64,000 bases of DNA from Escherichia coli (GTDB taxonomy: Bacteria; Pseudomonadota; Gammaproteobacteria; Enterobacterales; Enterobacteriaceae), in NCBI RefSeq assembly GCF_013315695.1, contig NZ_CP054353.1; one strand, given 5' to 3'. The notes beneath the pieces are model-generated. The model did no database searches. It saw nothing but the letters and a program-made list of their open reading frames with translations, and was not told where the DNA came from. The position numbers and the translations under genes were made by a program. Below, piece by piece: positions 8,358 through 19,082 of this stretch (position 1 is the stretch's first letter; each line of letters begins with the position of its first letter).

Positions 8358-8588
8358 ATGAGAACAGCCGAATCACCCGGCAGAAAAATAACCGCCAGAC
8401 CAGCTAACCATCATGCACATATCAGCATTGCCGCAAGAAAAGCCGAGCGTGCGCATATCTGCGAATTGCTGCATGACCTGGTTAACACAGCGAGAGAGAA
8501 GCACACCTCCCCGGAGGAAACCTGTTCATCCATTGAACGACTGATTGCAATACTCGCCAACCCAGACGAACTGAAGGGGTGCGCATAA
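8358..8588 (+). CDS. early-operon hypothetical protein (76 aa)
   Basis: ATG at 8358 with AGGAG RBS; stop overlaps the exonuclease start (TAATG). Confidence 0.55.
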   Translation: MRTAESPGRKITARPANHHAHISIAARKAERAHICELLHDLVNTAREKHTSPEETCSSIERLIAILANPDELKGCA

Positions 8589-9169
8589 TGAACCATCTCA
8601 TGATTGACACCGAAACACTGGGTAACGGACCGGACGCAGCCATATTCACGATTGGGGCGGTGTTTTTCGACCCGTTCACCGGAAAGCTGGGCAAGCAGTT
8701 TGAGAAATTCATCGACCCGGTGGATTCAGAACGCAACGGCGGAACCGTCAATGCAGCCACCGCTGTATGGTGGGCCGGACAATCCGTGGAAGCCAGAGCC
8801 TGCCTGCGCAACGCAGATGGAACAGAGCTGGCAGCAGTGACCGAATTTCTGGCGTTCATTTCACGCAATATGCATGACGAAAGCCCGGGCAATTCACTGA
8901 ACATATGGTGTAAGGGCGCATCCTTCGATTTCCCGATCCTGAAATCCGCCATAACACGCACAGCCGGAGAAAAAAGCATCCCCTGGTGCTACTGGAACGA
9001 GCGCTGTATGCGCCCGCTTATCGCCATGGCTGAATCAACTGGATGGAAAATGCCAGGCAGATCAGGCAAAGAGACCATTGCTCACACCGCGCTGGGCGAC
9101 GCCGTTTACCAGGCAAAGGTCGTGTCAGAAATCTGGCAGCGCTTCACAACACCATTCCTGAACATATGA
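8588..9169 (+). CDS. 3'-5' exonuclease, DEDD (DnaQ-like) family
   Basis: 193 aa; MIDTETLG (Exo I D-x-E) and HTALGDA (Exo III) motifs. Confidence 0.75.
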   Translation: MNHLMIDTETLGNGPDAAIFTIGAVFFDPFTGKLGKQFEKFIDPVDSERNGGTVNAATAVWWAGQSVEARACLRNADGTELAAVTEFLAFISRNMHDESPGNSLNIWCKGASFDFPILKSAITRTAGEKSIPWCYWNERCMRPLIAMAESTGWKMPGRSGKETIAHTALGDAVYQAKVVSEIWQRFTTPFLNI

Positions 9170-11164: not shown

Positions 11165-11347
11165 CAGAAACACCCCGCGTATGCAGACAATCACCAGTTG
11201 CCAGGTGATATTAATTCGCAACATTCTAACCACATCAGCACGCAACACAAAAACCGCTTGCCAGCGCTCGTCGTGTCAGGTTACATTTCCGCTGCACCTC
11301 ATAAAACGGGTGCCGGGTTTCGCAGCCTGCTGACAACCAAAGCGCAC

Positions 11348-11368
11348 AACCGCGCCAGCGGTTTTTTT
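11348..11368 (+). terminator. intrinsic terminator-like hairpin plus T-run (aaccgc-gcca-gcggtt-ttttt) in repeat copy 1
   Basis: 6-bp GC-rich stem followed by T7, nested in outer symmetry cgcacaa...ttgtgcg. Confidence 0.5.
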
Positions 11369-11547
11369 GTGCGTACTGTATTGCCACGTCTTTTTCGCGT
11401 CAGAATTATGGCGGGGCGTACGGGGCCGACTTCGGTCGGGCCGGGTTCTTTGCTAGCCGGTACTGCGAACCTCGTACGTCTCGCCACCCACAGTTTCGCA
11501 GCTCTGGATGGTGAGTTTTCACAACTTACTAGCAAAGAGGCCACACC

Positions 11548-11769
11548 ATGGCAAACCGCAAGCAACAGCGCGCCCGCGCTGAGCGTCTTCACATCCGCAG
11601 CGAAATCAACCGCAGACTTTTCCGCGCAACACGCGTCGCGCAAATCATGCATATCAACATGCTGCATGAGCGCACGCACGCACTATCAAACCGTTACTGC
11701 GCTGCTGTCTTCAGCTATCTCGCCGAAGATCTGGCAGAACTGCAAAGCCTCATCAACCAGCACCGATAA
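11548..11769 (+). CDS. small basic protein (73 aa, MANRKQQRARAERLHIRSEINRR...), repeat copy 1
   Basis: ATG with AAAGAGG RBS; identical copy at 12377-12598. Confidence 0.5.
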   Translation: MANRKQQRARAERLHIRSEINRRLFRATRVAQIMHINMLHERTHALSNRYCAAVFSYLAEDLAELQSLINQHR

Positions 11770-11837
11770 ACCACATCCGGAAGCTATCCCACACCTGCAC
11801 GCGGGAGGCTTCCGCACGTCTGTTACCGGAGGTTCTC

Positions 11838-12009
11838 ATGAAGAGCGTTAAGGGACTTTCAGATATTCAGGACTTCTTTAACTGGATGTGGGCGGTGGAT
11901 CCCCTGCTGGCTTCCCGCCTGAACAACTGGCACGACTATTACCGCCGCGCCTGTAAACAGGCTGCCCGCAGCGTCACCACATACGGGGCTTTCTCCTTCA
12001 CCGTTGACT
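11838..12009 (+). pseudogene. truncated 5' duplicate (about 57 codons) of the 138-aa gene, broken at the duplication junction
   Basis: Same RBS and first 57 codons as 12667-13083, then reads into repeat copy 2. Confidence 0.55.
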
Positions 12010-12176
12010 ATGCAGACAATCACCAGTTGCCAGGTGATATTAATTCGCAACATTCTAACCACATCAGCACGCAACACAAAAACCGCTTGCCAGCGCTCGT
12101 CGTGTCGGGTTACATTTCCGCTGCACCTCATAAAACGGGTGCCGGGTTTCGCAGCCTGCCGACTAGCAAAGCGCAC

Positions 12177-12197
12177 AACCGCGCCAGCGGTTTTTTT
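12177..12197 (+). terminator. same terminator-like hairpin in repeat copy 2
   Basis: Identical sequence at +829. Confidence 0.5.
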
Positions 12198-12376
12198 GTG
12201 CGTACTGTATTGCCACGTCTTTTTCGCGTCAGAATTATGGCGGGGCGTACGGGGCCGACTTCGGTCGGGCCGGGTTCTTTGCTAGCCGGTACTGCGAACC
12301 TCGTACGTCTCGCCACCCACAGTTTCGCAGCTCTGGATGGTGAGTTTTCACAACTTACTAGCAAAGAGGCCACACC

Positions 12377-12598
12377 ATGGCAAACCGCAAGCAACAGCGC
12401 GCCCGCGCTGAGCGTCTTCACATCCGCAGCGAAATCAACCGCAGACTTTTCCGCGCAACACGCGTCGCGCAAATCATGCATATCAACATGCTGCATGAGC
12501 GCACGCACGCACTATCAAACCGTTACTGCGCTGCTGTCTTCAGCTATCTCGCCGAAGATCTGGCAGAACTGCAAAGCCTCATCAACCAGCACCGATAA
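12377..12598 (+). CDS. small basic protein (73 aa), repeat copy 2
   Basis: Identical to 11548-11769. Confidence 0.5.
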   Translation: MANRKQQRARAERLHIRSEINRRLFRATRVAQIMHINMLHERTHALSNRYCAAVFSYLAEDLAELQSLINQHR

Positions 12599-12666
12599 AC
12601 CACATCCGGAAGCTATCCCACACCTGCACGCGGGAGGCTTCCGCACGTCTGTTACCGGAGGTTCTC

Positions 12667-13083
12667 ATGAAGAGCGTTAAGGGACTTTCAGATATTCAGG
12701 ACTTCTTTAACTGGATGTGGGCGGTGGATCCCCTGCTGGCTTCCCGCCTGAACAACTGGCACGACTATTACCGCCGCGCCTGTAAACAGGCTGCCCGCAG
12801 CGTCACCACATACGGGGATTTCTCCTTCACCGTGGACGGTCGTTACCGCGTGGACGTGAAAGGTGATGGTGATGGACTGGGTTTATTTCACATCAACGGC
12901 ACCGACAGTACCGCCATCAGCTGGTCGTCATCAGAGATGGCGCTGGTTCTGGAAATGACAACCCACAGCGTGGCCGTGAAAGGTATATACACCGCAGAAG
13001 GTTTTATCGGCGAATACCAGCGCCTTCTCGTGCTGTACCGCGCGGCGTTTCAGGTGGCAACTGCCGGGGAGTGCGACGCATGA
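12667..13083 (+). CDS. hypothetical protein (138 aa) immediately upstream of and coupled to gene A
   Basis: ATG with GGAGG RBS; stop overlaps the A start (ATGA). Confidence 0.6.
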   Translation: MKSVKGLSDIQDFFNWMWAVDPLLASRLNNWHDYYRRACKQAARSVTTYGDFSFTVDGRYRVDVKGDGDGLGLFHINGTDSTAISWSSSEMALVLEMTTHSVAVKGIYTAEGFIGEYQRLLVLYRAAFQVATAGECDA

Positions 13084-15593
13084 GCGACCATAACGCACAA
13101 CTGGCGTACCCGTGGAACGCCCCGCTACCGGTTATCGATCCTGAAACGTTCGGCAGAGCACAGCCAACCGCATTACGCCAGGCCATTCAGAGCTACATCA
13201 ACGAGGACATTCGCATTGATGCCAGACTGGATGAAGAAACCGTCGCCTTTCTGACAACCACAGACGAAGGGAAGCGAATTAATTCGCACCTTCACCACAA
13301 CGAAGAGCGTCGGATCAGACTGGAAAAACTGGCGCGGCACAAACGCGAGAATCCGCCCACGGTGGTATCGGAAGCCATGGCAGAACTTCGCGCCCTGCCC
13401 TCGTTTCTTGGCAACGCGCTCATTCGTGATCTGGCGCGTTTAAACCGCAAACAGCAAAGCGCCCGCCATGAAGGCGTGAAAAACAACAATACACACGTGG
13501 CTGATAACTTTGTTCGCCGTGGACTGCGCACACGCCTGAAACGCATCGAACAGGTGAATGAATGCTTCGCCACGACGGCATTCAAAGCCACCGCAGCACG
13601 CCATCGCCTTGATGAATTACTCATGCTGCCACAACTCAACCGTGATCAAATTCAGCGCCTTGCCACACTAACGGCGGCGGCATTTTCCACCGAACTGGAA
13701 CGCATATGTGATGAAGTTACTGAGCGGACAGGAAAAGGCGACGATAACCTGTTTACCTGGTTGCTGACTTACCAGCAGCTGGCGCGCATGGCAATAAAAC
13801 TGGGCGTGAACCCACCATACTGGCCGTCACTCGAGATCAGACGTGACCGCCGCACGGCACCAGACCCTGAACTGGTACCGGGCGCGGTAATGCGTATCAC
13901 CTGCGCCACCTGGTGGAACAACCAGCTGCGCCACCTCGCTGATCTCTGGCGGGAGGAATTACTGCGTGCCGCCGGAAGAGTATCGCGCAAGGCATCCCCC
14001 TACATCAGCCATGAGTCACTCCAGGAATTCCGGGAGAAACGCCAGCGCACCCGTGATTTTCTCAAAAGCTGGGACATTGAAAACGAAGACGGTGAACGCC
14101 TGAGCCTGGAGGACGTGTACTGGTCAGGGCTGGGGAATCCGCGCAACCGCCGCAACGAGATGATGGCCTGCGTCAGAGGGATGGAACAGGTCGCCGAATC
14201 GCGTGGTGACTCCGCGTTCTTCGTGACAGTGACCTGCCCTTCCCGCTTTCACAGCGTAAACGAGGACGGCAGCCTGAACCCGAAATACAACGGTGCCACC
14301 GTGCGCGATGCCAGTGATTATCTGGTTTACGACGTCTTTGCAGCTGCAAGAAAAAAACTCAACAAAGAAGGCCTGAGCTGGTACGGGGTGCGCACCGTTG
14401 AGCCACACCATGACGGCACACCGCACTGGCACATGCTGGTATTCACCGCCCCGGACAATGAAGAACGCATCATTGAAATCATGCGTGACGCAGCAATCAA
14501 ATCAGATCGCGCAGAACTGGGGAATGATATTTCTCCGCGCTTCAAGTGCGAAAAAATCGACCCGGCAAAAGGCACACCGGCAAGCTACATCGCAACCTAT
14601 ATTGGCAAGAACCTGGACGCCAGCACCTTTCACGACAATGACCCGAAAACCGGCAAACCTTACGCCGATAAAGAATCGGGAAAAACCATGGCGGAAACCG
14701 TGGAAAACGCCATTGCCTGGGCGAGTCTCCACCGCATCCGGCAGTTCCAGTTCTTCGGTATCCCGCCCCGCCAGGTATGGCGTGAACTCCGCCGCCTTGC
14801 CGGACAAATGGAGCGTAACCCCGCATCACCGAAGCGCCTGGACCATGACGACATTGACGCCATTCTGGCCGCCGCTGACGTGGGGTGTTTTGCCACCTAC
14901 ATCAACCGTCAGGGCGGCGTGCTCATTCCACGCAACCTGTACCTGATCCGCACCGCATACGAAACCGCAGATGAGGCCAACGACTACGGCGAATTCCCGC
15001 AGCGCATCTACGGAATTTGTGCCCCGTCGCTCGGCGAGCGCTACACCATCTGCACCCATCCGGACGAGTGGAAACTGGTCAGAAAAGAAGCGAAAGCCGA
15101 CAACAGCACGGACGAGGATTTTGACGTTGGGGGCGGCTTCGCCGCACCTTGGACTCGTGGCAATAACTGTCGCCATGATGAAAAAACAGACACCGAAGAG
15201 GGTAAAAACCCACCACCGGAAACCAGGAAAGAACAAAAACTGGTCGTCCCGGAAGGTGATTTGGGCGAGTGGTTAAGGTCACTGACCCCCACAGAGCGAA
15301 AACAACTCACCAGGCAGCTGAAAGATGCGCCATCTGACACAAAAACCGTGAAAACCGGCGGCCCCACCACGCCCGATGACGTCATACATGTGCGTACCGC
15401 ATTGCCGCTGGCTGACGTCACCACCACCGTGATCAAGTCGGCACTGAGCACGACGGGCGAGGAGCTGCACAGTGGCGCGGCACTTTCCGTACACAGAGGT
15501 GCACGCGTTCGCCTGCCTGACGGGCGGATTGTGCACTGGGATGAGAAATCACGAAGCCTGGTGGCAGCAGATCAACCGGAGGTGAACCCATGA
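13080..15593 (+). CDS. replication initiation endonuclease, P2 gpA-like (HUH rolling-circle initiator)
   Basis: 837 aa; GTPHWHMLVF H-hydrophobic-H motif; size and position as P2/186 A. Confidence 0.88.
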   Translation: MSDHNAQLAYPWNAPLPVIDPETFGRAQPTALRQAIQSYINEDIRIDARLDEETVAFLTTTDEGKRINSHLHHNEERRIRLEKLARHKRENPPTVVSEAMAELRALPSFLGNALIRDLARLNRKQQSARHEGVKNNNTHVADNFVRRGLRTRLKRIEQVNECFATTAFKATAARHRLDELLMLPQLNRDQIQRLATLTAAAFSTELERICDEVTERTGKGDDNLFTWLLTYQQLARMAIKLGVNPPYWPSLEIRRDRRTAPDPELVPGAVMRITCATWWNNQLRHLADLWREELLRAAGRVSRKASPYISHESLQEFREKRQRTRDFLKSWDIENEDGERLSLEDVYWSGLGNPRNRRNEMMACVRGMEQVAESRGDSAFFVTVTCPSRFHSVNEDGSLNPKYNGATVRDASDYLVYDVFAAARKKLNKEGLSWYGVRTVEPHHDGTPHWHMLVFTAPDNEERIIEIMRDAAIKSDRAELGNDISPRFKCEKIDPAKGTPASYIATYIGKNLDASTFHDNDPKTGKPYADKESGKTMAETVENAIAWASLHRIRQFQFFGIPPRQVWRELRRLAGQMERNPASPKRLDHDDIDAILAAADVGCFATYINRQGGVLIPRNLYLIRTAYETADEANDYGEFPQRIYGICAPSLGERYTICTHPDEWKLVRKEAKADNSTDEDFDVGGGFAAPWTRGNNCRHDEKTDTEEGKNPPPETRKEQKLVVPEGDLGEWLRSLTPTERKQLTRQLKDAPSDTKTVKTGGPTTPDDVIHVRTALPLADVTTTVIKSALSTTGEELHSGAALSVHRGARVRLPDGRIVHWDEKSRSLVAADQPEVNP

Positions 15594-15994
15594 CACGATT
15601 CCATTGCGTACTCCAGCGCCATGATTTCAGCACCATCATGAGTGGACGCATTCCGGCACTGACGCTGAGCGGCGTCAGTGTTCGGCCACAGCCAGGCGAC
15701 GAACTGGAGATCACGATCGCAAACCCCGATCGCAGCACAGATACCGTCATGACCGACATCCTGACTGCAAGAATCAACGCCGACAGAAGCGCATTCATCG
15801 TTGCCGTGCGTCCTCGTCGCGCCATATCAGAGCCTGAACCACTGACCCCCGTCGGAAAAATCATGCAGGCATACCACGAAAAACAGACCAGAAAACTCAA
15901 TGAAGAGCTGGCAAGAACGTTGGCCGTCGTTAACCGAAAAGCGGCAATTGCCCGCTATGTGCATTCAGCCGCCAACAGGCAATCACGCAGGTAA
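15590..15994 (+). CDS. hypothetical protein (134 aa) coupled to the A stop
   Basis: ATGA overlap with A; no recognisable motif. Confidence 0.5.
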   Translation: MTRFHCVLQRHDFSTIMSGRIPALTLSGVSVRPQPGDELEITIANPDRSTDTVMTDILTARINADRSAFIVAVRPRRAISEPEPLTPVGKIMQAYHEKQTRKLNEELARTLAVVNRKAAIARYVHSAANRQSRR

Positions 15995-16042
15995 CAAAAG
16001 ACCATGAACATGACCAAAAACACCAAACTGAAGGAGCACACC

Positions 16043-16213
16043 ATGAACGACATCAGGAAGATCAGCGACAAAGACCTGAAGAAAATGATTGAGTCGGCGC
16101 AGCAGCTGCTCTCACGACGAAATCCGGTTGTGGAAGAAACATGGTGGGAAAATTTACTGGCAGCGCTGACCGAACTCCGCGAACGCCGGAACAACGAAGG
16201 AGCTGCCAAATGA
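16043..16213 (+). CDS. hypothetical small protein (56 aa)
   Basis: ATG with AAGGAG RBS inside ORF-track frame 16004..16213; stop overlaps the next start. Confidence 0.45.
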   Translation: MNDIRKISDKDLKKMIESAQQLLSRRNPVVEETWWENLLAALTELRERRNNEGAAK

Positions 16214-16548
16214 AGACACCCAGAATGACCGGAAAGGAAATCATTTTACGCTACCTGAAAACGCACGCACGCTTCAGCGCACCAGAGCTGGTTGAAAAAC
16301 TGGGCGTGAAAAGGACCGTCATTAATCAGGCTGCCGGAAAGATGGTGCGCGAAGGGCTGCTGGTTGTGGATGGGTACACGGACAAGATAACGCATTACCG
16401 GAAGCCAACGAAAAAGGAGCTGCGGGAGCTGAAACGACGGGCAGAATGGCAACAGGAGCCGTCAGTAATTGAAGCCTGCAAGCGCAGCGAAATCATGAAG
16501 AGAATTCTGTTTATCTACGGCGCTGGCGAAGAGCTGCCCGTCATCTGA
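16210..16548 (+). CDS. putative winged-helix DNA-binding protein (112 aa)
   Basis: ATGA-coupled; HTH-like segment SAPELVEKLGVKRTVINQAAGKMVREGLLVV. Confidence 0.5.
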   Translation: MKTPRMTGKEIILRYLKTHARFSAPELVEKLGVKRTVINQAAGKMVREGLLVVDGYTDKITHYRKPTKKELRELKRRAEWQQEPSVIEACKRSEIMKRILFIYGAGEELPVI

Positions 16549-16580
16549 ACCCAACAATAAAACCAACACGGGAGACAAAT

Positions 16581-16898
16581 ATGCCAACACAGGTTGCAAC
16601 AGAGGGACGACTGGCAGCAGACCCGAACACAAGGAGAACAGCCAAAGGTACCAGCGTCACAACAGCACAACTGGCGGTATCACTACCCTGCCATGGCGCA
16701 GAACAGCCAACCACAATGTGGCTTTACCTTATCGCGTTCGGGAAGCAACACGAAGAACTGGCAAAACACAGAAAAGGCGATCTGATCCTGGTGCACGGGA
16801 ACTTGCAGGTAAACAGGTATCAGGACAAGTACGAGCAACAGAAAGAGGGCTGGCAGCTGCTGACGCAAAGCATTATCAGCTCAAGAACCGGGCGATGA
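16581..16898 (+). CDS. SSB-like OB-fold protein lacking the acidic C-terminal tail (105 aa)
   Basis: GGGAGA RBS; aligns by eye to the E. coli SSB OB fold ([25 protein letters not shown] vs [59 protein letters not shown] vs [35 protein letters not shown]); ends right after the fold. Confidence 0.6.
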   Translation: [105 protein letters not shown]

Positions 16899-16908
16899 CT
16901 TCACGCAT

Positions 16909-16947
16909 GTTACCCTCAGCAGCGAGGGTAACACAGGATTTCTTTTT
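16909..16947. terminator. bidirectional terminator between the convergent SSB-like gene and membrane-protein gene
   Basis: gttaccctc-agcagc-gagggtaac hairpin followed by a T-run. Confidence 0.6.
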
Positions 16948-17592
16948 TCAGTCAAACCGAAATCGGCCGCTTGTCGCGTATGCATAGGTGACCACCGCAC
17001 CCAGCGCATTCACACGCTTCTTCACATAAATCACATTACCATCCTGATAGTCACCGTATGGGTAGCAAATAAAGATTGTTTTTTGCAAATCAGGATCATC
17101 AACAAATGCCCCTGAACAACTTTTTGAGCTACCGCGACTGTACTCATAGGGAGCGGAATAGAATGAATCTTCACCCGGAAGAAAATATATCAGCGTAACC
17201 AGGAGGGTAAACAGAATCATCCAGGTAAGAAGGCACATACCCGAAAAAAACTTAAGATACGATGTAACCCCGGTAAATTTAGACCGATCAACCAGGTTCT
17301 TTTTCAACAGGCACAGTGAGACAAAAACCGAAAGCACCACAGACACTGAAACAAGGCAGTTTGTCGTGAACGAATAAAGGTAGGTAATTCTGTAAACATC
17401 GTTTCGCCACCAAATAAAAAGAAAAATCCCCCCCAAAACAGAAAGCGTGACAAAAGTTAAATAAGGATATGAGTAATTTTTCACAGTTCTCACCCGGCAA
17501 TACACCACTGATTCAGACAGATGATTATCATCACCACCCACCCCCAAAAATCGCAAGATAAAAAATGCACAAAAGCGCACGAAATTGCACAA
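16948..17592 (-). CDS. AT-rich cargo gene: multi-pass membrane protein (3-4 predicted TM helices) with about 70-aa soluble C-terminal domain; start codon unresolved
   Basis: ORF-track frame starts at TTG; first in-frame ATG gives only 96 aa; a GTG with GGTGA upstream gives about 177 aa; local GC far below flanks; sits where P2 carries old/tin. Confidence 0.5.
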   Translation of the reverse strand: MCNFVRFCAFFILRFLGVGGDDNHLSESVVYCRVRTVKNYSYPYLTFVTLSVLGGIFLFIWWRNDVYRITYLYSFTTNCLVSVSVVLSVFVSLCLLKKNLVDRSKFTGVTSYLKFFSGMCLLTWMILFTLLVTLIYFLPGEDSFYSAPYEYSRGSSKSCSGAFVDDPDLQKTIFICYPYGDYQDGNVIYVKKRVNALGAVVTYAYATSGRFRFD

Positions 17593-17688
17593 TTTTTCTT
17601 ATGTGTTTCATCCCCATTCAGCCCAGTAACGGCGCTGGCTGAGGCCGGTTTGCACGGTGCACGAAAAACGAGGCAATTGCAGCGCGCA

Positions 17689-17707
17689 GGCGACGAGGGA
17701 AGGGCGC
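17689..17707. other. candidate cos cohesive-end region (ggcgacgagggaagggcgc)
   Basis: GC-rich segment between the A-side cargo and the portal gene; resembles the P2 cos sequence as I recall it. Confidence 0.3.
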
Positions 17708-18038
17708 CCGAATTGAGGGGTGGAAGGCAGGTTGCTTTATTTGGGGTCGTATTGCGCGTGATACGCACGCAGTGAAGCCGGTTCTGAAAAAACCACACCG
17801 AAACAGAGTCAGAAAAACAGGCCGCCAGAATGCGTCTGGTTGAGTTTTACGGGGTCGGGATTAAATGCGGAAACATCACACCGCAGGCATGACGCGAAAA
17901 AGAGAAAAACCACAGCAAAACATAATGTTAAATGTTATTGATGAGTTGAGAAGCGAGAGGTGTATTGCGTTGACAGAGCTGGAGAGTCGGGGCATAAATT
18001 TTTTATGCCCCGGCGAAGCAGCCGACAAGCGAAGCGCG

Positions 18039-19082
18039 TCAGCTGGCGTTATCCTGAAGCAACGCATAGGGGTTAAAGCGCATTACCTCGCTTCCCAGCC
18101 ATTCATTGACATGCTTCATGGCCTCCATGACAGGTTGCAGCTCGTTGATGAAAAACACCCTCGCCGCTTTCTCAACGTCACCGAGCGCCGCGTTCCCGTC
18201 AGGCATTGCCCCCATCAGCTGAGGCGGTACACGGTGAGCCGCAAGGATATCGTCACGGGCGGTACCCTTGATGTTAAGGAATTCGTCCTTCGCGGTGATT
18301 TGCTGGAACGGCAGTATTTGCACACCATCCTTGCCGCCACCTGGCGCGTGCAGAAGGATATTGCGGAACGCCCCCTTGCCACGGGATTCCGTGAGGGTTT
18401 TCTTTACCGCCTCCACGCTTTCAGCGTTTGCCTGGGCGGCCCCGACATAGACAATGCACCCGGCATGTGAGCCGTTGTCATAGTAGAGCTTGCGGAACGT
18501 GTCCGCCGAGTTCGACAGGCTCACCGACAGCAGCCCACCGATATACTCCGGCATCCCGTAGATTTCCTGGTTGATATCAGGGTTCAGAACATGGCACACA
18601 GCCCCCTTCCGGAACGCGAATTCAGAACCATCATCATTGAGGTACCAGTACGTATCGAGATCACTGCCCCGCCGCGTGTATTTCGCCAGCGCCGGGCGGA
18701 GCGCAATGGGCTCACCGAACCTGTTACGGCGCACCTCAAGATAGGCATTACCGAACACAAACCAGTCGAGTGCAAACGCTGAAAACGCCTGGCGGGACAG
18801 GAGCGGATGAGGAACAAAGCACCCGTTCAGGGCGTTGCGCTTAAAATACAGGGCCGACTGGTGCCATGACGCACGACGGGAGGCGCGAGCAATGGCGTTC
18901 CAGTCCATGGGGGTGTCATAGTAGCGGCCATTATCGGCGCACGACATATTATCAAGAAGATCAAGACGGCTTGCTTCATAAGGACCGTCAAACGTGAAAG
19001 CACTGAGTGACGGCGCTGATTTCAGTGCATCGGCCAGTGAGCCCGTGCCGCGCTTTCCGGTGTATTTTTTACGTTTACTCAT
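18039..19082 (-). CDS. portal protein, P2 gpQ-like
   Basis: 347 aa; size and position next to terminase ATPase. Confidence 0.85.
   Translation of the reverse strand: MSKRKKYTGKRGTGSLADALKSAPSLSAFTFDGPYEASRLDLLDNMSCADNGRYYDTPMDWNAIARASRRASWHQSALYFKRNALNGCFVPHPLLSRQAFSAFALDWFVFGNAYLEVRRNRFGEPIALRPALAKYTRRGSDLDTYWYLNDDGSEFAFRKGAVCHVLNPDINQEIYGMPEYIGGLLSVSLSNSADTFRKLYYDNGSHAGCIVYVGAAQANAESVEAVKKTLTESRGKGAFRNILLHAPGGGKDGVQILPFQQITAKDEFLNIKGTARDDILAAHRVPPQLMGAMPDGNAALGDVEKAARVFFINELQPVMEAMKHVNEWLGSEVMRFNPYALLQDNAS

What the first reader, a model, noticed from the sequence alone, without database searches (positions are those of the whole stretch)
15590..16947. Four-gene translationally coupled operon after gene A with a tail-less SSB-like protein
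Four small genes follow A with overlapping stop/start codons and end at a bidirectional terminator: 134 aa (no motif), 56 aa, a 112-aa winged-helix-like protein and a 105-aa SSB-type OB-fold protein that stops right after the fold. A tail-less SSB could bind ssDNA without recruiting host partners, or act as a PriB-like replication accessory. P2 has only orf91 here, so this is variable cargo; whether the four act together is untested.
Basis: partly seen in the sequence, partly recalled or inferred. Interest (0 to 1): 0.65.

Follow-up and report, generated by a model that had tools for sequence, protein, structure and literature searches.

The report
P2-like phage early genes, tail-less SSB
The four small genes after the replication gene of this E. 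coli P2-like prophage are real, but they are a patchwork of early-lytic accessory genes rather than one four-part machine: an Orf91-type ASCH-fold protein, an orphan peptide, a homologue of phage lambda Ren, and an SSB DNA-binding core that lost its partner-recruiting tail.

Summary
The window holds an E. coli P2-like prophage. All four ORFs after gene A are real, each with a strong Shine-Dalgarno site. Only two of the four junctions overlap (A/o1 and o2/o3, both ATGA).

- **o1 (134 aa):** no sequence motif, but it folds as an ASCH/PUA barrel plus a long helix. It sits exactly where P2 Orf91 (DUF3850/ASCH) sits.
- **o2 (56 aa):** an orphan found only in E. coli.
- **o3 (112 aa):** a full-length homologue of lambda Ren (44% identity), start-coupled to the preceding gene as in lambda.
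- **o4 (105 aa):** a true SSB OB fold (Pfam 2e-13; model TM about 0.8 to solved SSBs). It ends at the fold.

The nearest relatives of o4 (about 50% identity) are 138-155 aa SSBs. Most of them end in an acidic tip such as PPFDDDIPF. They lie after the primase of satellite-like integrative elements. So o4 is a tail-deleted derivative. It is kept under purifying selection (dN/dS 0.2-0.3), yet it is lost, IS-disrupted or internally deleted in some lineages.

The genes are nested rather than co-varying: o1 occurs in more loci than o2, o2 in more than o3, and o3 in more than o4. The truly variable cargo lies downstream of o4. PADLOC reported no defence family for o1, o2 or o4, and only weak winged-helix matches for o3. 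No internal promoter was found. The cassette was already catalogued, untested, in Rousset et al. 2022. Interest is modest.

The parts
13071..15593 (+). Gene A, P2-type replication endonuclease (840 aa); the last essential gene of the early operon, and the four ORFs are appended to it
   Evidence: ORF. RefSeq annotates the 99.9%-identical locus as 'replication endonuclease'.
15590..15994 (+). o1, 134 aa: N-terminal ASCH/PUA-like beta-barrel (about residues 1-75) plus a long C-terminal helix (87-133). Positional and fold analogue of P2 Orf91. Start overlaps the A stop (ATGA).
16043..16213 (+). o2, 56 aa, not characterised here; an orphan found only in E. coli. AAGGAG SD 7 nt upstream of the start.
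   Evidence: PHROG 14672 aligns 1-56 of 56. No Pfam match. All 75 database homologues that carry a name are from E. coli, at 75-100% identity. No match in isolated phages. Occurs without o3 in L019, L022, L023 and L025.
16210..16548 (+). o3, 112 aa: homologue of phage lambda Ren (winged helix). Start overlaps the o2 stop (ATGA), as lambda ren overlaps P.
   Evidence: PHROG 142 'Ren-like exclusion protein', E 1.2e-29. tblastn to lambda and many lambdoid phages, 42-45% identity. Pairwise alignment with lambda Ren residues 1-93 of 96, 44% identity, E 3e-26. Lambda P/ren overlap. MarR_2 E 3.5e-5.
16581..16898 (+). o4, 105 aa: bacterial-type SSB OB-fold core with no linker and no acidic tip
   Evidence: Pfam SSB E 1.9e-13. 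TIGR00621 45.6 bits, below its 53.95 cut-off. PDB sequence hits are all SSBs. AF2 pLDDT 86. Foldseek TM about 0.8 to SSB cores. W47, F53 and Y80 align with EcSSB W54, F60 and W88. Tailed relatives. dN/dS 0.21-0.34, p about 8e-4.
16908..16948 (+). 10-bp hairpin (16908-16917 / 16924-16933) followed after 5 nt by UUUCUUUUUU; the likely end of the early transcript. The hairpin is shared with the convergent gene, but there is no U-run for the minus strand.
   Evidence: Fold. Not called by the terminator scan. Conserved in L007 and L003 but replaced by a different hairpin in L004 and L029.
16948..17592 (-). Convergent ORF of unknown function (214-aa ORF; RefSeq aa from 17484). This is the actual variable cargo of the A-Q hotspot in this prophage.
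   Evidence: PHROG 1416, unknown function. No PADLOC match. Replaced by a TumE-family toxin-antitoxin pair, Ogr or other genes in related loci.
18039..19082 (-). Portal protein Q, the right-hand boundary of the A-Q interval

Best explanation
The block is the 3' extension of the early lytic (replication) operon of a rare lineage of E. coli P2-like prophages. It is a mosaic of accessory early genes stacked between gene A and the cos-proximal variable region. It is not a single four-component system.

- **o1** is this lineage's version of P2 Orf91: an ASCH-fold protein, probably nucleic-acid-binding, translationally coupled to A.
- **o2 and o3** form a coupled pair. o3 is a lambda Ren homologue. 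Like Ren in lambda, it closes the replication gene cluster and probably modulates replication or protects the phage from Rex-type exclusion.
- **o4** is the OB-fold core of a mobile-element SSB family. That family normally sits just after the primase of satellite-like integrative elements, and most members carry an acidic tip.

In the P2-like lineage the gene was cut exactly at the end of the fold, at the edge of the recombination-prone region. Inferred, not shown: during lytic growth o4 coats the single strand displaced by A-initiated rolling-circle replication. It would shield that DNA without recruiting the host proteins that dock on the SSB tip.

Shown here: gene structures, folds, homologies, distribution, purifying selection, and the absence of a predicted internal promoter. 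Inferred: co-transcription with A, ssDNA binding, and every biological role.
For: - **Same strand as A, with coupling:** ATGA overlaps at A/o1 and o2/o3, strong SDs, and no + strand promoter-like site in 12500-18200.
- **o1:** follows A in every locus recovered with o1 as the query, with A at 50-100% identity in the loci where A was on the contig. ASCH fold, matching P2 Orf91's family and position.
- **o3:** full-length Ren homologue. Lambda ren is likewise ATGA-coupled to the last replication gene. Thomason et al. (doi 10.1101/2021.04.19.439022) call ren 'likely involved in DNA replication' and report two-hybrid contacts of Rex proteins with O and Ren.
- **o4:** SSB fold, with three of the four EcSSB DNA-stacking aromatic positions retained.
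- **Relatives of o4:** 138-155 aa; in the loci fetched from species-representative genomes most end PPFDDEAPF, PPFDDDIPF or PPFDDETPF. In 15 of the 18 fetched loci they lie directly after a primase-helicase.
- **Breakpoints:** homology between variants breaks exactly at the o4 stop and at the o3 stop.
- **Selection:** o4 dN/dS is 0.21-0.34, similar to A, o1, o2 and o3. The nonsynonymous fraction is 0.54 against 0.77 expected under neutrality, p = 8e-4.
- **Length:** all three E. coli clusters, at 76-95% identity, are exactly 105 aa.
- **Defence models:** no PADLOC family for o1, o2 or o4.
- **Variable cargo** lies downstream of o4.
Against: - No expression, binding or phenotype data exist.
- o4 is dispensable. 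It is absent from L002, L008 and L009, IS-interrupted in L006/L031, and carries a 20-aa in-frame deletion of beta strands in L003/L032.
- A tail-less SSB could hinder lagging-strand priming, which depends on SSB-tip contacts, so a simple 'helper of replication' role is not self-evident.
- The o1 model is confident in only one of five AF2 models.
- The promoter scan is a crude consensus scan.
- Ren's own mechanism is unknown, so homology transfers little mechanism.
Confidence: 0.6

Rival explanations
1. o4 is a functionless relic. It would be the 5' stump of a tailed SSB gene left behind when hotspot recombination removed its 3' end, still open only because the event is recent.
For: - Truncation coincides with a homology breakpoint.
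- o4 is absent, IS-disrupted or internally deleted in several related prophages.
- Only 26 of the 66 E. coli genomes that carry o1 keep all four genes.
- Tip erosion recurs in the tailed relatives: P0008 ends ...EEYD, P0006 and P0009 end ...EEDS, and the Kosakonia protein is 121 aa without a tip.
Against: - The ORF is intact and exactly 105 aa in three clusters down to 76% identity.
- dS reaches about 0.36 with dN/dS about 0.3, significantly below neutrality.
- Strong SD.
- DNA-contact aromatic residues are kept.
Confidence: 0.15
2. The genes, or o3 and o4 alone, are counter-defence or conflict factors rather than replication helpers. Ren-like o3 would neutralise a Rex-type abortive system. 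OB-only o4 would act as a shield or dominant-negative: it would coat phage ssDNA so that tip-dependent host nucleases, helicases or ssDNA/SSB-sensing defences cannot engage, or it would poison the tailed SSB of co-resident satellites by forming mixed oligomers.
For: - Lambda Ren is defined genetically by escape from Rex exclusion (own knowledge: Toothman and Herskowitz 1980), and Rex-Ren two-hybrid contact is reported.
- The same SSB subfamily, at about 50% identity, is carried in tailed form by primase-bearing, satellite-like elements.
- The genes sit next to a known arms-race hotspot (PMC9122126).
- Early lytic expression suits counter-defence.
Against: - There is no direct evidence.
- None of the fetched E. 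coli loci shows a tailed copy of this SSB subfamily; the tailed relatives recovered come from Klebsiella, Enterobacter, Buttiauxella and similar genera.
- Frequent loss of o4.
Confidence: 0.15
3. The four genes form a prophage-encoded anti-phage defence system, that is, cargo of the gpA-gpQ hotspot expressed in the lysogen.
For: - They lie between gpA and gpQ, the interval treated as a defence hotspot.
- The exact cassette is listed among hotspot loci in that paper's supplement.
- o2-o4 are variably present.
Against: - Same strand as A and coupled to it. By contrast tin/old in P2 and the cargo ORF in this prophage are on the opposite strand.
- No promoter-like site on the + strand.
- No PADLOC family for o1, o2 or o4, and only weak generic winged-helix hits for o3.
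- The distribution is nested rather than all-or-none.
- The component families (Orf91-type, Ren, SSB) are lytic-cycle genes elsewhere.
Confidence: 0.07
4. o4 is a PriB-like primosome accessory that works with host PriA/DnaT in replication restart or in lagging-strand origin assembly for the phage.
For: Same size as PriB (104 aa) and also tail-less. Weak TIGR04418 hit, E 0.036.
Against: - 14.2 bits against a cut-off of 72.
- The top 50 structural neighbours are all SSBs.
- The closest relatives are tailed SSBs.
Confidence: 0.03

Closest known systems
Bacterial-type homotetrameric SSB (Pfam PF00436; E. coli SSB). The nearest relatives are the 138-155 aa SSBs encoded after the primase of integrase-AlpA-primase satellite-like elements of Enterobacterales.
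   Same: OB-fold core with SSB topology. W, F and an aromatic residue sit at the positions of EcSSB W54, F60 and W88. About 50% identity to the mobile-element subfamily. Placed as the last gene of a replication module, next to a cos-proximal variable region.
   Different: No linker and no acidic tip: the protein ends at residue 105, at the end of the fold. EcSSB W40 and H55 are not conserved. Scores below the TIGR00621 cut-off. Follows a rolling-circle initiator (A) rather than a primase.
Naturally tail-less SSB paralogues: B. subtilis SsbB (PDB 3vdy) and E. coli PriB
   Same: About 105-113 aa OB-only proteins derived from SSB. 3vdy is among the sequence and fold hits.
   Different: Those are chromosomal genes with dedicated roles (competence, primosome). 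This one is phage-borne and descends from a different, tailed subfamily. PriB family membership fails.
Phage lambda Ren (PHROG 142)
   Same: Full-length homology (44% identity). Winged-helix N-terminal half. Conserved C-terminal ...MKR(I/V)L..YG motif. The start codon overlaps the stop of the preceding gene at the 3' end of the replication cluster.
   Different: Resides in a P2-like (Peduoviridae-type) genome, after a 56-aa orphan rather than after P. Has 5 extra N-terminal residues and about 8 extra C-terminal residues. The Rex-escape function is untested.
P2 Orf91 (DUF3850/ASCH)
   Same: First gene after A, with its start overlapping the A stop. ASCH/PUA-like barrel.
   Different: No detectable sequence similarity (hhalign probability 0.1%). 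o1 adds a helix of about 47 residues, presumably a coiled coil. The o1 family is tiny: 3 clusters at 50% identity among 1.84 billion representatives.
P2 gpA-gpQ defence hotspot (Rousset et al. 2022, PMC9122126)
   Same: Same interval; the cassette is listed in their locus table.
   Different: The four genes belong to the conserved, ragged left edge of the interval and are on the early-operon strand. The swapped cargo lies to their right.

Membership tests
Bacterial-type SSB (PF00436 / TIGR00621) | OB fold with SSB sequence profile | tested here: met
   Pfam E 1.9e-13. PHROG 44 E 1.3e-22. 25 PDB SSB sequences matched. AF2 model with Foldseek TM about 0.8.
Bacterial-type SSB (PF00436 / TIGR00621) | Reaches the curated NCBIfam cut-off for ssb | tested here: not met
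   45.6 bits against a cut-off of 53.95.
Bacterial-type SSB (PF00436 / TIGR00621) | Disordered linker plus C-terminal acidic tip (D-D-D-I-P-F type) that recruits partner proteins | tested here: not met
   The protein ends ...SIISSRTGR at the last strand of the fold. Read-through of the TGA stop would add LHACYPQQRG, with no acidic tip (read directly from the sequence). Tailed relatives are shown.
Bacterial-type SSB (PF00436 / TIGR00621) | Aromatic ssDNA-stacking residues (EcSSB W40, W54, F60, W88) | tested here: inconclusive
Bacterial-type SSB (PF00436 / TIGR00621) | Binds ssDNA as a homotetramer | not testable with these tools
   Needs biochemistry or multimer modelling.
PriB (TIGR04418) | Profile match above cut-off | tested here: not met
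   14.2 bits against a cut-off of 72. 15% identity to E. coli PriB.
PriB (TIGR04418) | Chromosomal rpsF-priB-rpsR context | tested here: not met
   Located in a P2-like prophage after gene A. The rpsF-priB-rpsR context is recalled from own knowledge.
Lambda Ren family (PHROG 142) | Full-length sequence homology to lambda Ren | tested here: met
   PHROG E 1.2e-29, covering 3-108. BLASTP to lambda Ren residues 1-93 of 96, 44% identity, E 3e-26.
Lambda Ren family (PHROG 142) | Sits at the 3' end of the replication gene cluster, with its start overlapping the previous stop | tested here: met
   o2/o3 ATGA overlap. Lambda P/ren overlap, 2201-2204 of L059.
Lambda Ren family (PHROG 142) | Confers resistance to RexAB exclusion | not testable with these tools
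   This is a genetic phenotype.
ASCH / DUF3850 (P2 Orf91 type) | Pfam profile match | tested here: not met
   No Pfam hit even at E <= 10. hhalign against Orf91 gives probability 0.1%.
ASCH / DUF3850 (P2 Orf91 type) | ASCH/PUA-like beta-barrel fold | tested here: met
ASCH / DUF3850 (P2 Orf91 type) | First gene after A, overlapping its stop | tested here: met
Prophage defence system in the gpA-gpQ hotspot | Match to a known or candidate defence protein model | tested here: not met
   PADLOC: no family for o1, o2 or o4; only weak generic winged-helix hits for o3, best E 1e-3.
Prophage defence system in the gpA-gpQ hotspot | Swapped as a unit between otherwise similar prophages | tested here: not met
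   Presence is nested (o1, then o2, then o3, then o4), with breakpoints at individual gene ends.
Prophage defence system in the gpA-gpQ hotspot | Independent expression in the lysogen | tested here: inconclusive
   No sigma-70-like site on the + strand, but the scan is crude and there are no expression data.

The most novel reading that the evidence does not exclude
The OB-only SSB is an evolved conflict protein of the helper phage, a natural 'tip-less' SSB. It would either hide replicating phage ssDNA from host or defence factors that dock on the SSB tip, or poison the tailed SSB of co-resident P4-type satellites. Those satellites carry the same subfamily next to their primase, so mixed oligomers are conceivable. 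Repeated erosion of the tip in this mobile-element SSB subfamily would then reflect selection rather than decay.
Probability: 0.07. Interest if true: 0.7.

Novelty: new member of a known kind. Interest (0 to 1): 0.3.

Why it matters
If the reading is right, the left part of the much-mined gpA-gpQ 'defence hotspot' of P2-like prophages is not defence cargo. It is an extension of the early replication operon, so hotspot surveys that take every gene between A and Q will mislabel such genes.

It also places a Ren homologue outside lambdoid phages, in the same operon position. That supports the idea that Ren is tied to replication modules.

It offers a compact natural test case for what an SSB does when its partner-recruiting tip is removed: a 105-aa OB-only protein under purifying selection, with tailed siblings at 50% identity.

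None of this overturns current understanding. Each component belongs to a known family.

Tried and rejected
- **Isolated phages.** Megablast, blastn and tblastn of the block, o1 and o2 against 50,697 phage genomes found no match. This lineage has no sequenced isolate, so no annotation could be borrowed.
- **o1 in species representatives.** A scan of 100,044 species-representative genomes with the o1 alignment found nothing. The exhaustive phmmer found only 3 real clusters plus two spurious repeat proteins.
- **o1 versus P2 Orf91 by profile.** No sequence similarity. The link rests on fold and position only.
- **o2 versus the C-terminus of lambda P.** No alignment, so o2 is not a remnant of P. 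Pfam and NCBIfam gave nothing significant for o2.
- **PADLOC on all four proteins and their neighbours.** Nothing meaningful.
- **PriB reading.** Rejected.
- **A hidden tail reached by read-through.** Read-through of the TGA stop gives LHACYPQQRG and then a second stop, with no acidic tip (read from the sequence).
- **Literature.** The search for tip-less phage SSBs found nothing directly relevant.
- **'Bidirectional terminator'.** Kept only as a shared hairpin whose U-run serves the + strand.

Full report
**Context.** The block is 99.9% identical to a chromosomal locus of E. coli strain MSB1_4I. There it lies in a P2-like prophage next to dmsABC. The prophage has an integrase, repressor-side genes, a 'replication endonuclease' (gene A), and then portal, terminase, GPO scaffold, P2-family capsid and tail genes. 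The block occurs in 37 of 5,426 complete E. coli genomes by megablast, always on the chromosome. It has no match in 50,697 isolated phage genomes.

**Observation.** The four ORFs are present as described:

| ORF | Coordinates | Length |
|---|---|---|
| o1 | 15590-15994 | 134 aa |
| o2 | 16043-16213 | 56 aa |
| o3 | 16210-16548 | 112 aa |
| o4 | 16581-16898 | 105 aa |

- Each start is preceded by a good Shine-Dalgarno sequence (read).
- The 56-aa start of o2 is favoured by its AAGGAG site and by a 56-position PHROG profile aligned end to end.
- Only the A/o1 and o2/o3 junctions are ATGA overlaps. The o1-o2 gap is 48 nt and the o3-o4 gap is 32 nt.
- After o4 there is a 10-bp hairpin at 16908-16933 (dG -23.5 kcal/mol, z = -4.2 against shuffles). 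A U-run follows, starting 5 nt downstream.
- The reverse strand has no U-run, and the consensus scan did not call the hairpin a terminator. 'Bidirectional' is therefore only partly right.
- The same scan found no promoter-like site on the + strand anywhere between 12500 and 18200. This is consistent with read-through from gene A, but it does not prove it.

**o4, the SSB.**
- Sequence matches: Pfam SSB at E 1.9e-13 over residues 4-90; PHROG 44 'single strand DNA binding protein' at 1.3e-22; 25 solved SSBs by sequence.
- An AlphaFold model (pLDDT 86) shows the expected strand-strand-strand-strand-helix-strand-strand OB fold.
- Its 50 best PDB neighbours are all bacterial SSB cores, with TM about 0.7-0.8.
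W40 and the tetramer residue H55 are not conserved.
- The protein ends seven residues after the last strand. It scores just below the curated ssb cut-off, 45.6 against 53.95 bits.
- The PriB idea is weak: 14 bits against a cut-off of 72 and 15% identity.

**Where the tail went.**
- A search of 5.8 billion proteins found three E. coli clusters at 76-95% identity, all exactly 105 aa.
- The next relatives, at about 50% identity, are 138-155 aa proteins from Klebsiella.
- A scan of species-representative genomes added Pluralibacter, Enterobacter, Buttiauxella, Budvicia, Edwardsiella and Kosakonia.
- These relatives continue past ...SARTxR into a short linker. In the species-representative loci most end in a canonical tip: PPFDDEAPF, PPFDDETPF, PPFDDDIPF or PYDDDF.
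- So o4 is a derived truncation of a tailed family.
- In 15 of the 18 fetched loci, the tailed relatives lie directly after a large primase-helicase. Where the upstream DNA was characterised, the element also carries an integrase, AlpA and an Ash-family gene, a satellite-like layout.
- In five Klebsiella loci the SSB is followed by a C-terminal fragment of a P2-type portal. I read this as captured helper DNA flanking cos.
- In both element types the SSB is the last gene of the replication module, bordering the cos-proximal variable region.
- Alignments of E. coli variants show that homology breaks exactly at the o4 stop. In SSB-less relatives it breaks at or just before the o3 stop.
- A breakpoint in the linker-coding region at the edge of a recombination-prone interval is therefore the simplest origin of the truncation (inference).
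- Tip erosion has also happened within the satellite copies...EEYD...EEDS, and a 121-aa Kosakonia form.

**Is o4 still used?**
- For use: pairwise dN/dS between the window and variants with dS up to 0.36 is 0.21-0.34. That is the same range as A, o1, o2 and o3.
- For use: the nonsynonymous share of changes is 0.54 against 0.77 expected under neutrality, binomial p = 8e-4.
- Against use: o4 is absent from L002, L008 and L009. An IS splits it in L006/L031. In L003/L032 it carries an in-frame 20-aa deletion that removes two strands of the fold.
- Conclusion: o4 is constrained but dispensable.

**o3.**
- Beyond generic winged-helix hits, o3 matches PHROG 142 'Ren-like exclusion protein' at 1.2e-29.
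- It hits 170 phage records at the protein level. All of those listed with annotation are lambda-type ren genes next to P or a DnaC-type loader.
- Pairwise with lambda Ren it aligns over residues 1-93 of 96 at 44% identity, E 3e-26.
- In lambda, ren starts with an ATGA overlap on the stop of P. Here o3 does the same on o2.
- Thomason et al. describe ren as 'likely involved in DNA replication'. They report two-hybrid contacts of Rex proteins with O and Ren (doi 10.1101/2021.04.19.439022).
- The classical Rex-escape phenotype is from my own knowledge (Toothman and Herskowitz 1980).

**o1.**
- No Pfam or NCBIfam family matches.
- The family is tiny: three genuine clusters among 1.84 billion representatives, and none in 100,044 species-representative genomes.
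- The best AlphaFold model (pLDDT 83; the other four scored 50-64) has a small barrel at residues 1-75 and a 47-residue helix.
- BFVD hits include phage proteins named DUF3850 and ASCH.
- P2 Orf91 is itself DUF3850/ASCH, and it is the gene whose start overlaps the stop of A in P2.
- There is no sequence similarity between o1 and Orf91, so membership is claimed at fold and position level only.
- An o1 homologue follows A in every locus recovered with o1 as the query. In the loci where A was on the contig, A ranged from 50% to 100% identity.

**o2.** This is an orphan with no domain match. All database homologues that carry a name are from E. coli, at 75-100% identity. It is unrelated to lambda P.

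**Do the four travel together?**
- Across 32 loci: o1 is found alone (for example L010-L018), o1+o2 (L019, L022, L023, L025), o1+o2+o3 (L002, L008, L009) and all four.
- o4 is never found in a P2-like context without o3.
- In complete E. coli genomes, 66 carry at least part of o1 and 26 carry at least 80% of the block. Coverage classes stop at about query positions 365, 599, 936-955 and 1300-1358.
- The pattern is nested, with breakpoints at gene ends. It is not all-or-none.
- Downstream of whichever gene comes last lie the truly swapped genes:
  - a convergent ORF of unknown function in this window;
  - a TumE-family toxin-antitoxin pair;
  - Ogr;
  - a small protein carrying a ClpX-type zinc-binding domain;
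  - others.

**Relation to the known hotspot.** Rousset et al. 2022 defined the whole gpA-gpQ interval as a defence hotspot. Their locus table lists this very cassette, WP_016236098 to WP_016236101, as 'hypothetical + SSB + hypothetical ...' with no functional test. PADLOC models do not recognise o1, o2 or o4, and give o3 only weak generic winged-helix hits. Strand, coupling to A, the lack of a predicted promoter and the nature of the families all argue that these are early lytic genes at the ragged left edge of the interval, not lysogen-expressed defence cargo.

**Mechanism.**
- My committed reading, at about 0.6 for the general statement, is an early-operon accessory mosaic.
- For o4 specifically (about one in three, inferred), I propose that it coats the strand displaced by A-initiated rolling-circle replication without recruiting proteins that depend on the SSB tip.
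- Rival readings: a decaying relic, a counter-defence or anti-satellite role, a defence system, and a PriB-like accessory.

**Verdict.** The finding is real and was read correctly in part, but it is ordinary in kind. Each component is a new member of a known family. The cassette was already catalogued. The co-function premise is not supported. Three points keep it from being dull:
- a Ren homologue in a P2-like phage;
- the fold link between o1 and Orf91;
- a tip-less SSB under purifying selection whose tailed siblings live in satellite-like elements.

Noticed in passing
window 11177-12837: An 829-bp tandem duplication lies upstream of gene A (copies at 11180-11479 and 12009-12308 are 99% identical). 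Each copy carries an isrK sRNA (11294-11368; 12123-12197) and a C4 antisense RNA (11404-11491; 12233-12320). The second copy holds the 'derepression protein' ORF at 12377-12598. The duplication also creates a fused ORF (11838-12680) that begins with the same first 50 residues as the 138-aa gene before A. An exact 60-nt probe found only one copy of the unit in the otherwise 99.9%-identical strain MSB1_4I.
   Followed up: partly
L033 8472-8804; L034-L036 about 8473-8793; L039 8484-8792: In Klebsiella satellite-like elements the tailed SSB is followed, on the same strand, by an ORF of about 110 aa. It is the C-terminal third (residues 239-341) of a P2-type portal protein, at 47-53% identity (PHROG 68 E 1e-52). 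It may be helper DNA captured together with cos, or a portal-mimic gene.
   Followed up: partly
L008 6982-7311 (also L009): Where o4 is missing, a 109-aa ORF takes its place. Its C-terminal 45 residues match the N-terminal zinc-binding domain of ClpX (TIGR00382 positions 7-50, E 7.5e-13). This looks like a free-standing ClpX-ZBD mimic in the hotspot.
   Followed up: partly
L006/L031 3768-5116; L003 5753-6010 and L032 568-822: o4 is split by an IS. The IS transposase ORFs (272 and 100 aa) differ at only two residues from those of the element inserted in L014. In two other lineages o4 carries an in-frame deletion of residues 13-32, which removes beta strands of the OB fold.
   Followed up: partly
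window 16825 and 16834: The only two nucleotide differences from strain MSB1_4I across the 1,358-bp block are both nonsynonymous A/G changes in o4, 10 nt apart (D82G and E85G in the loop between the last two strands).
   Followed up: no
window 13071-15593: Gene A encodes 840 aa against 761 in P2 and 694 in phage 186.
   Followed up: no
window about 17689-17707: GGCGACGAGGGAAGGGCGC loosely resembles the P2 cohesive end GGCGAGGCGGGGAAAGCAC and is probably cos. If so, the variable cargo of this prophage is the single convergent ORF between the hairpin and cos.
   Followed up: no
L003 6130-6878; L004 6313-7061: In related prophages the cargo after o4 is a TumE-family toxin plus an HVO_A0114-family DNA-binding protein, on the same strand as the early operon.
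   Followed up: no
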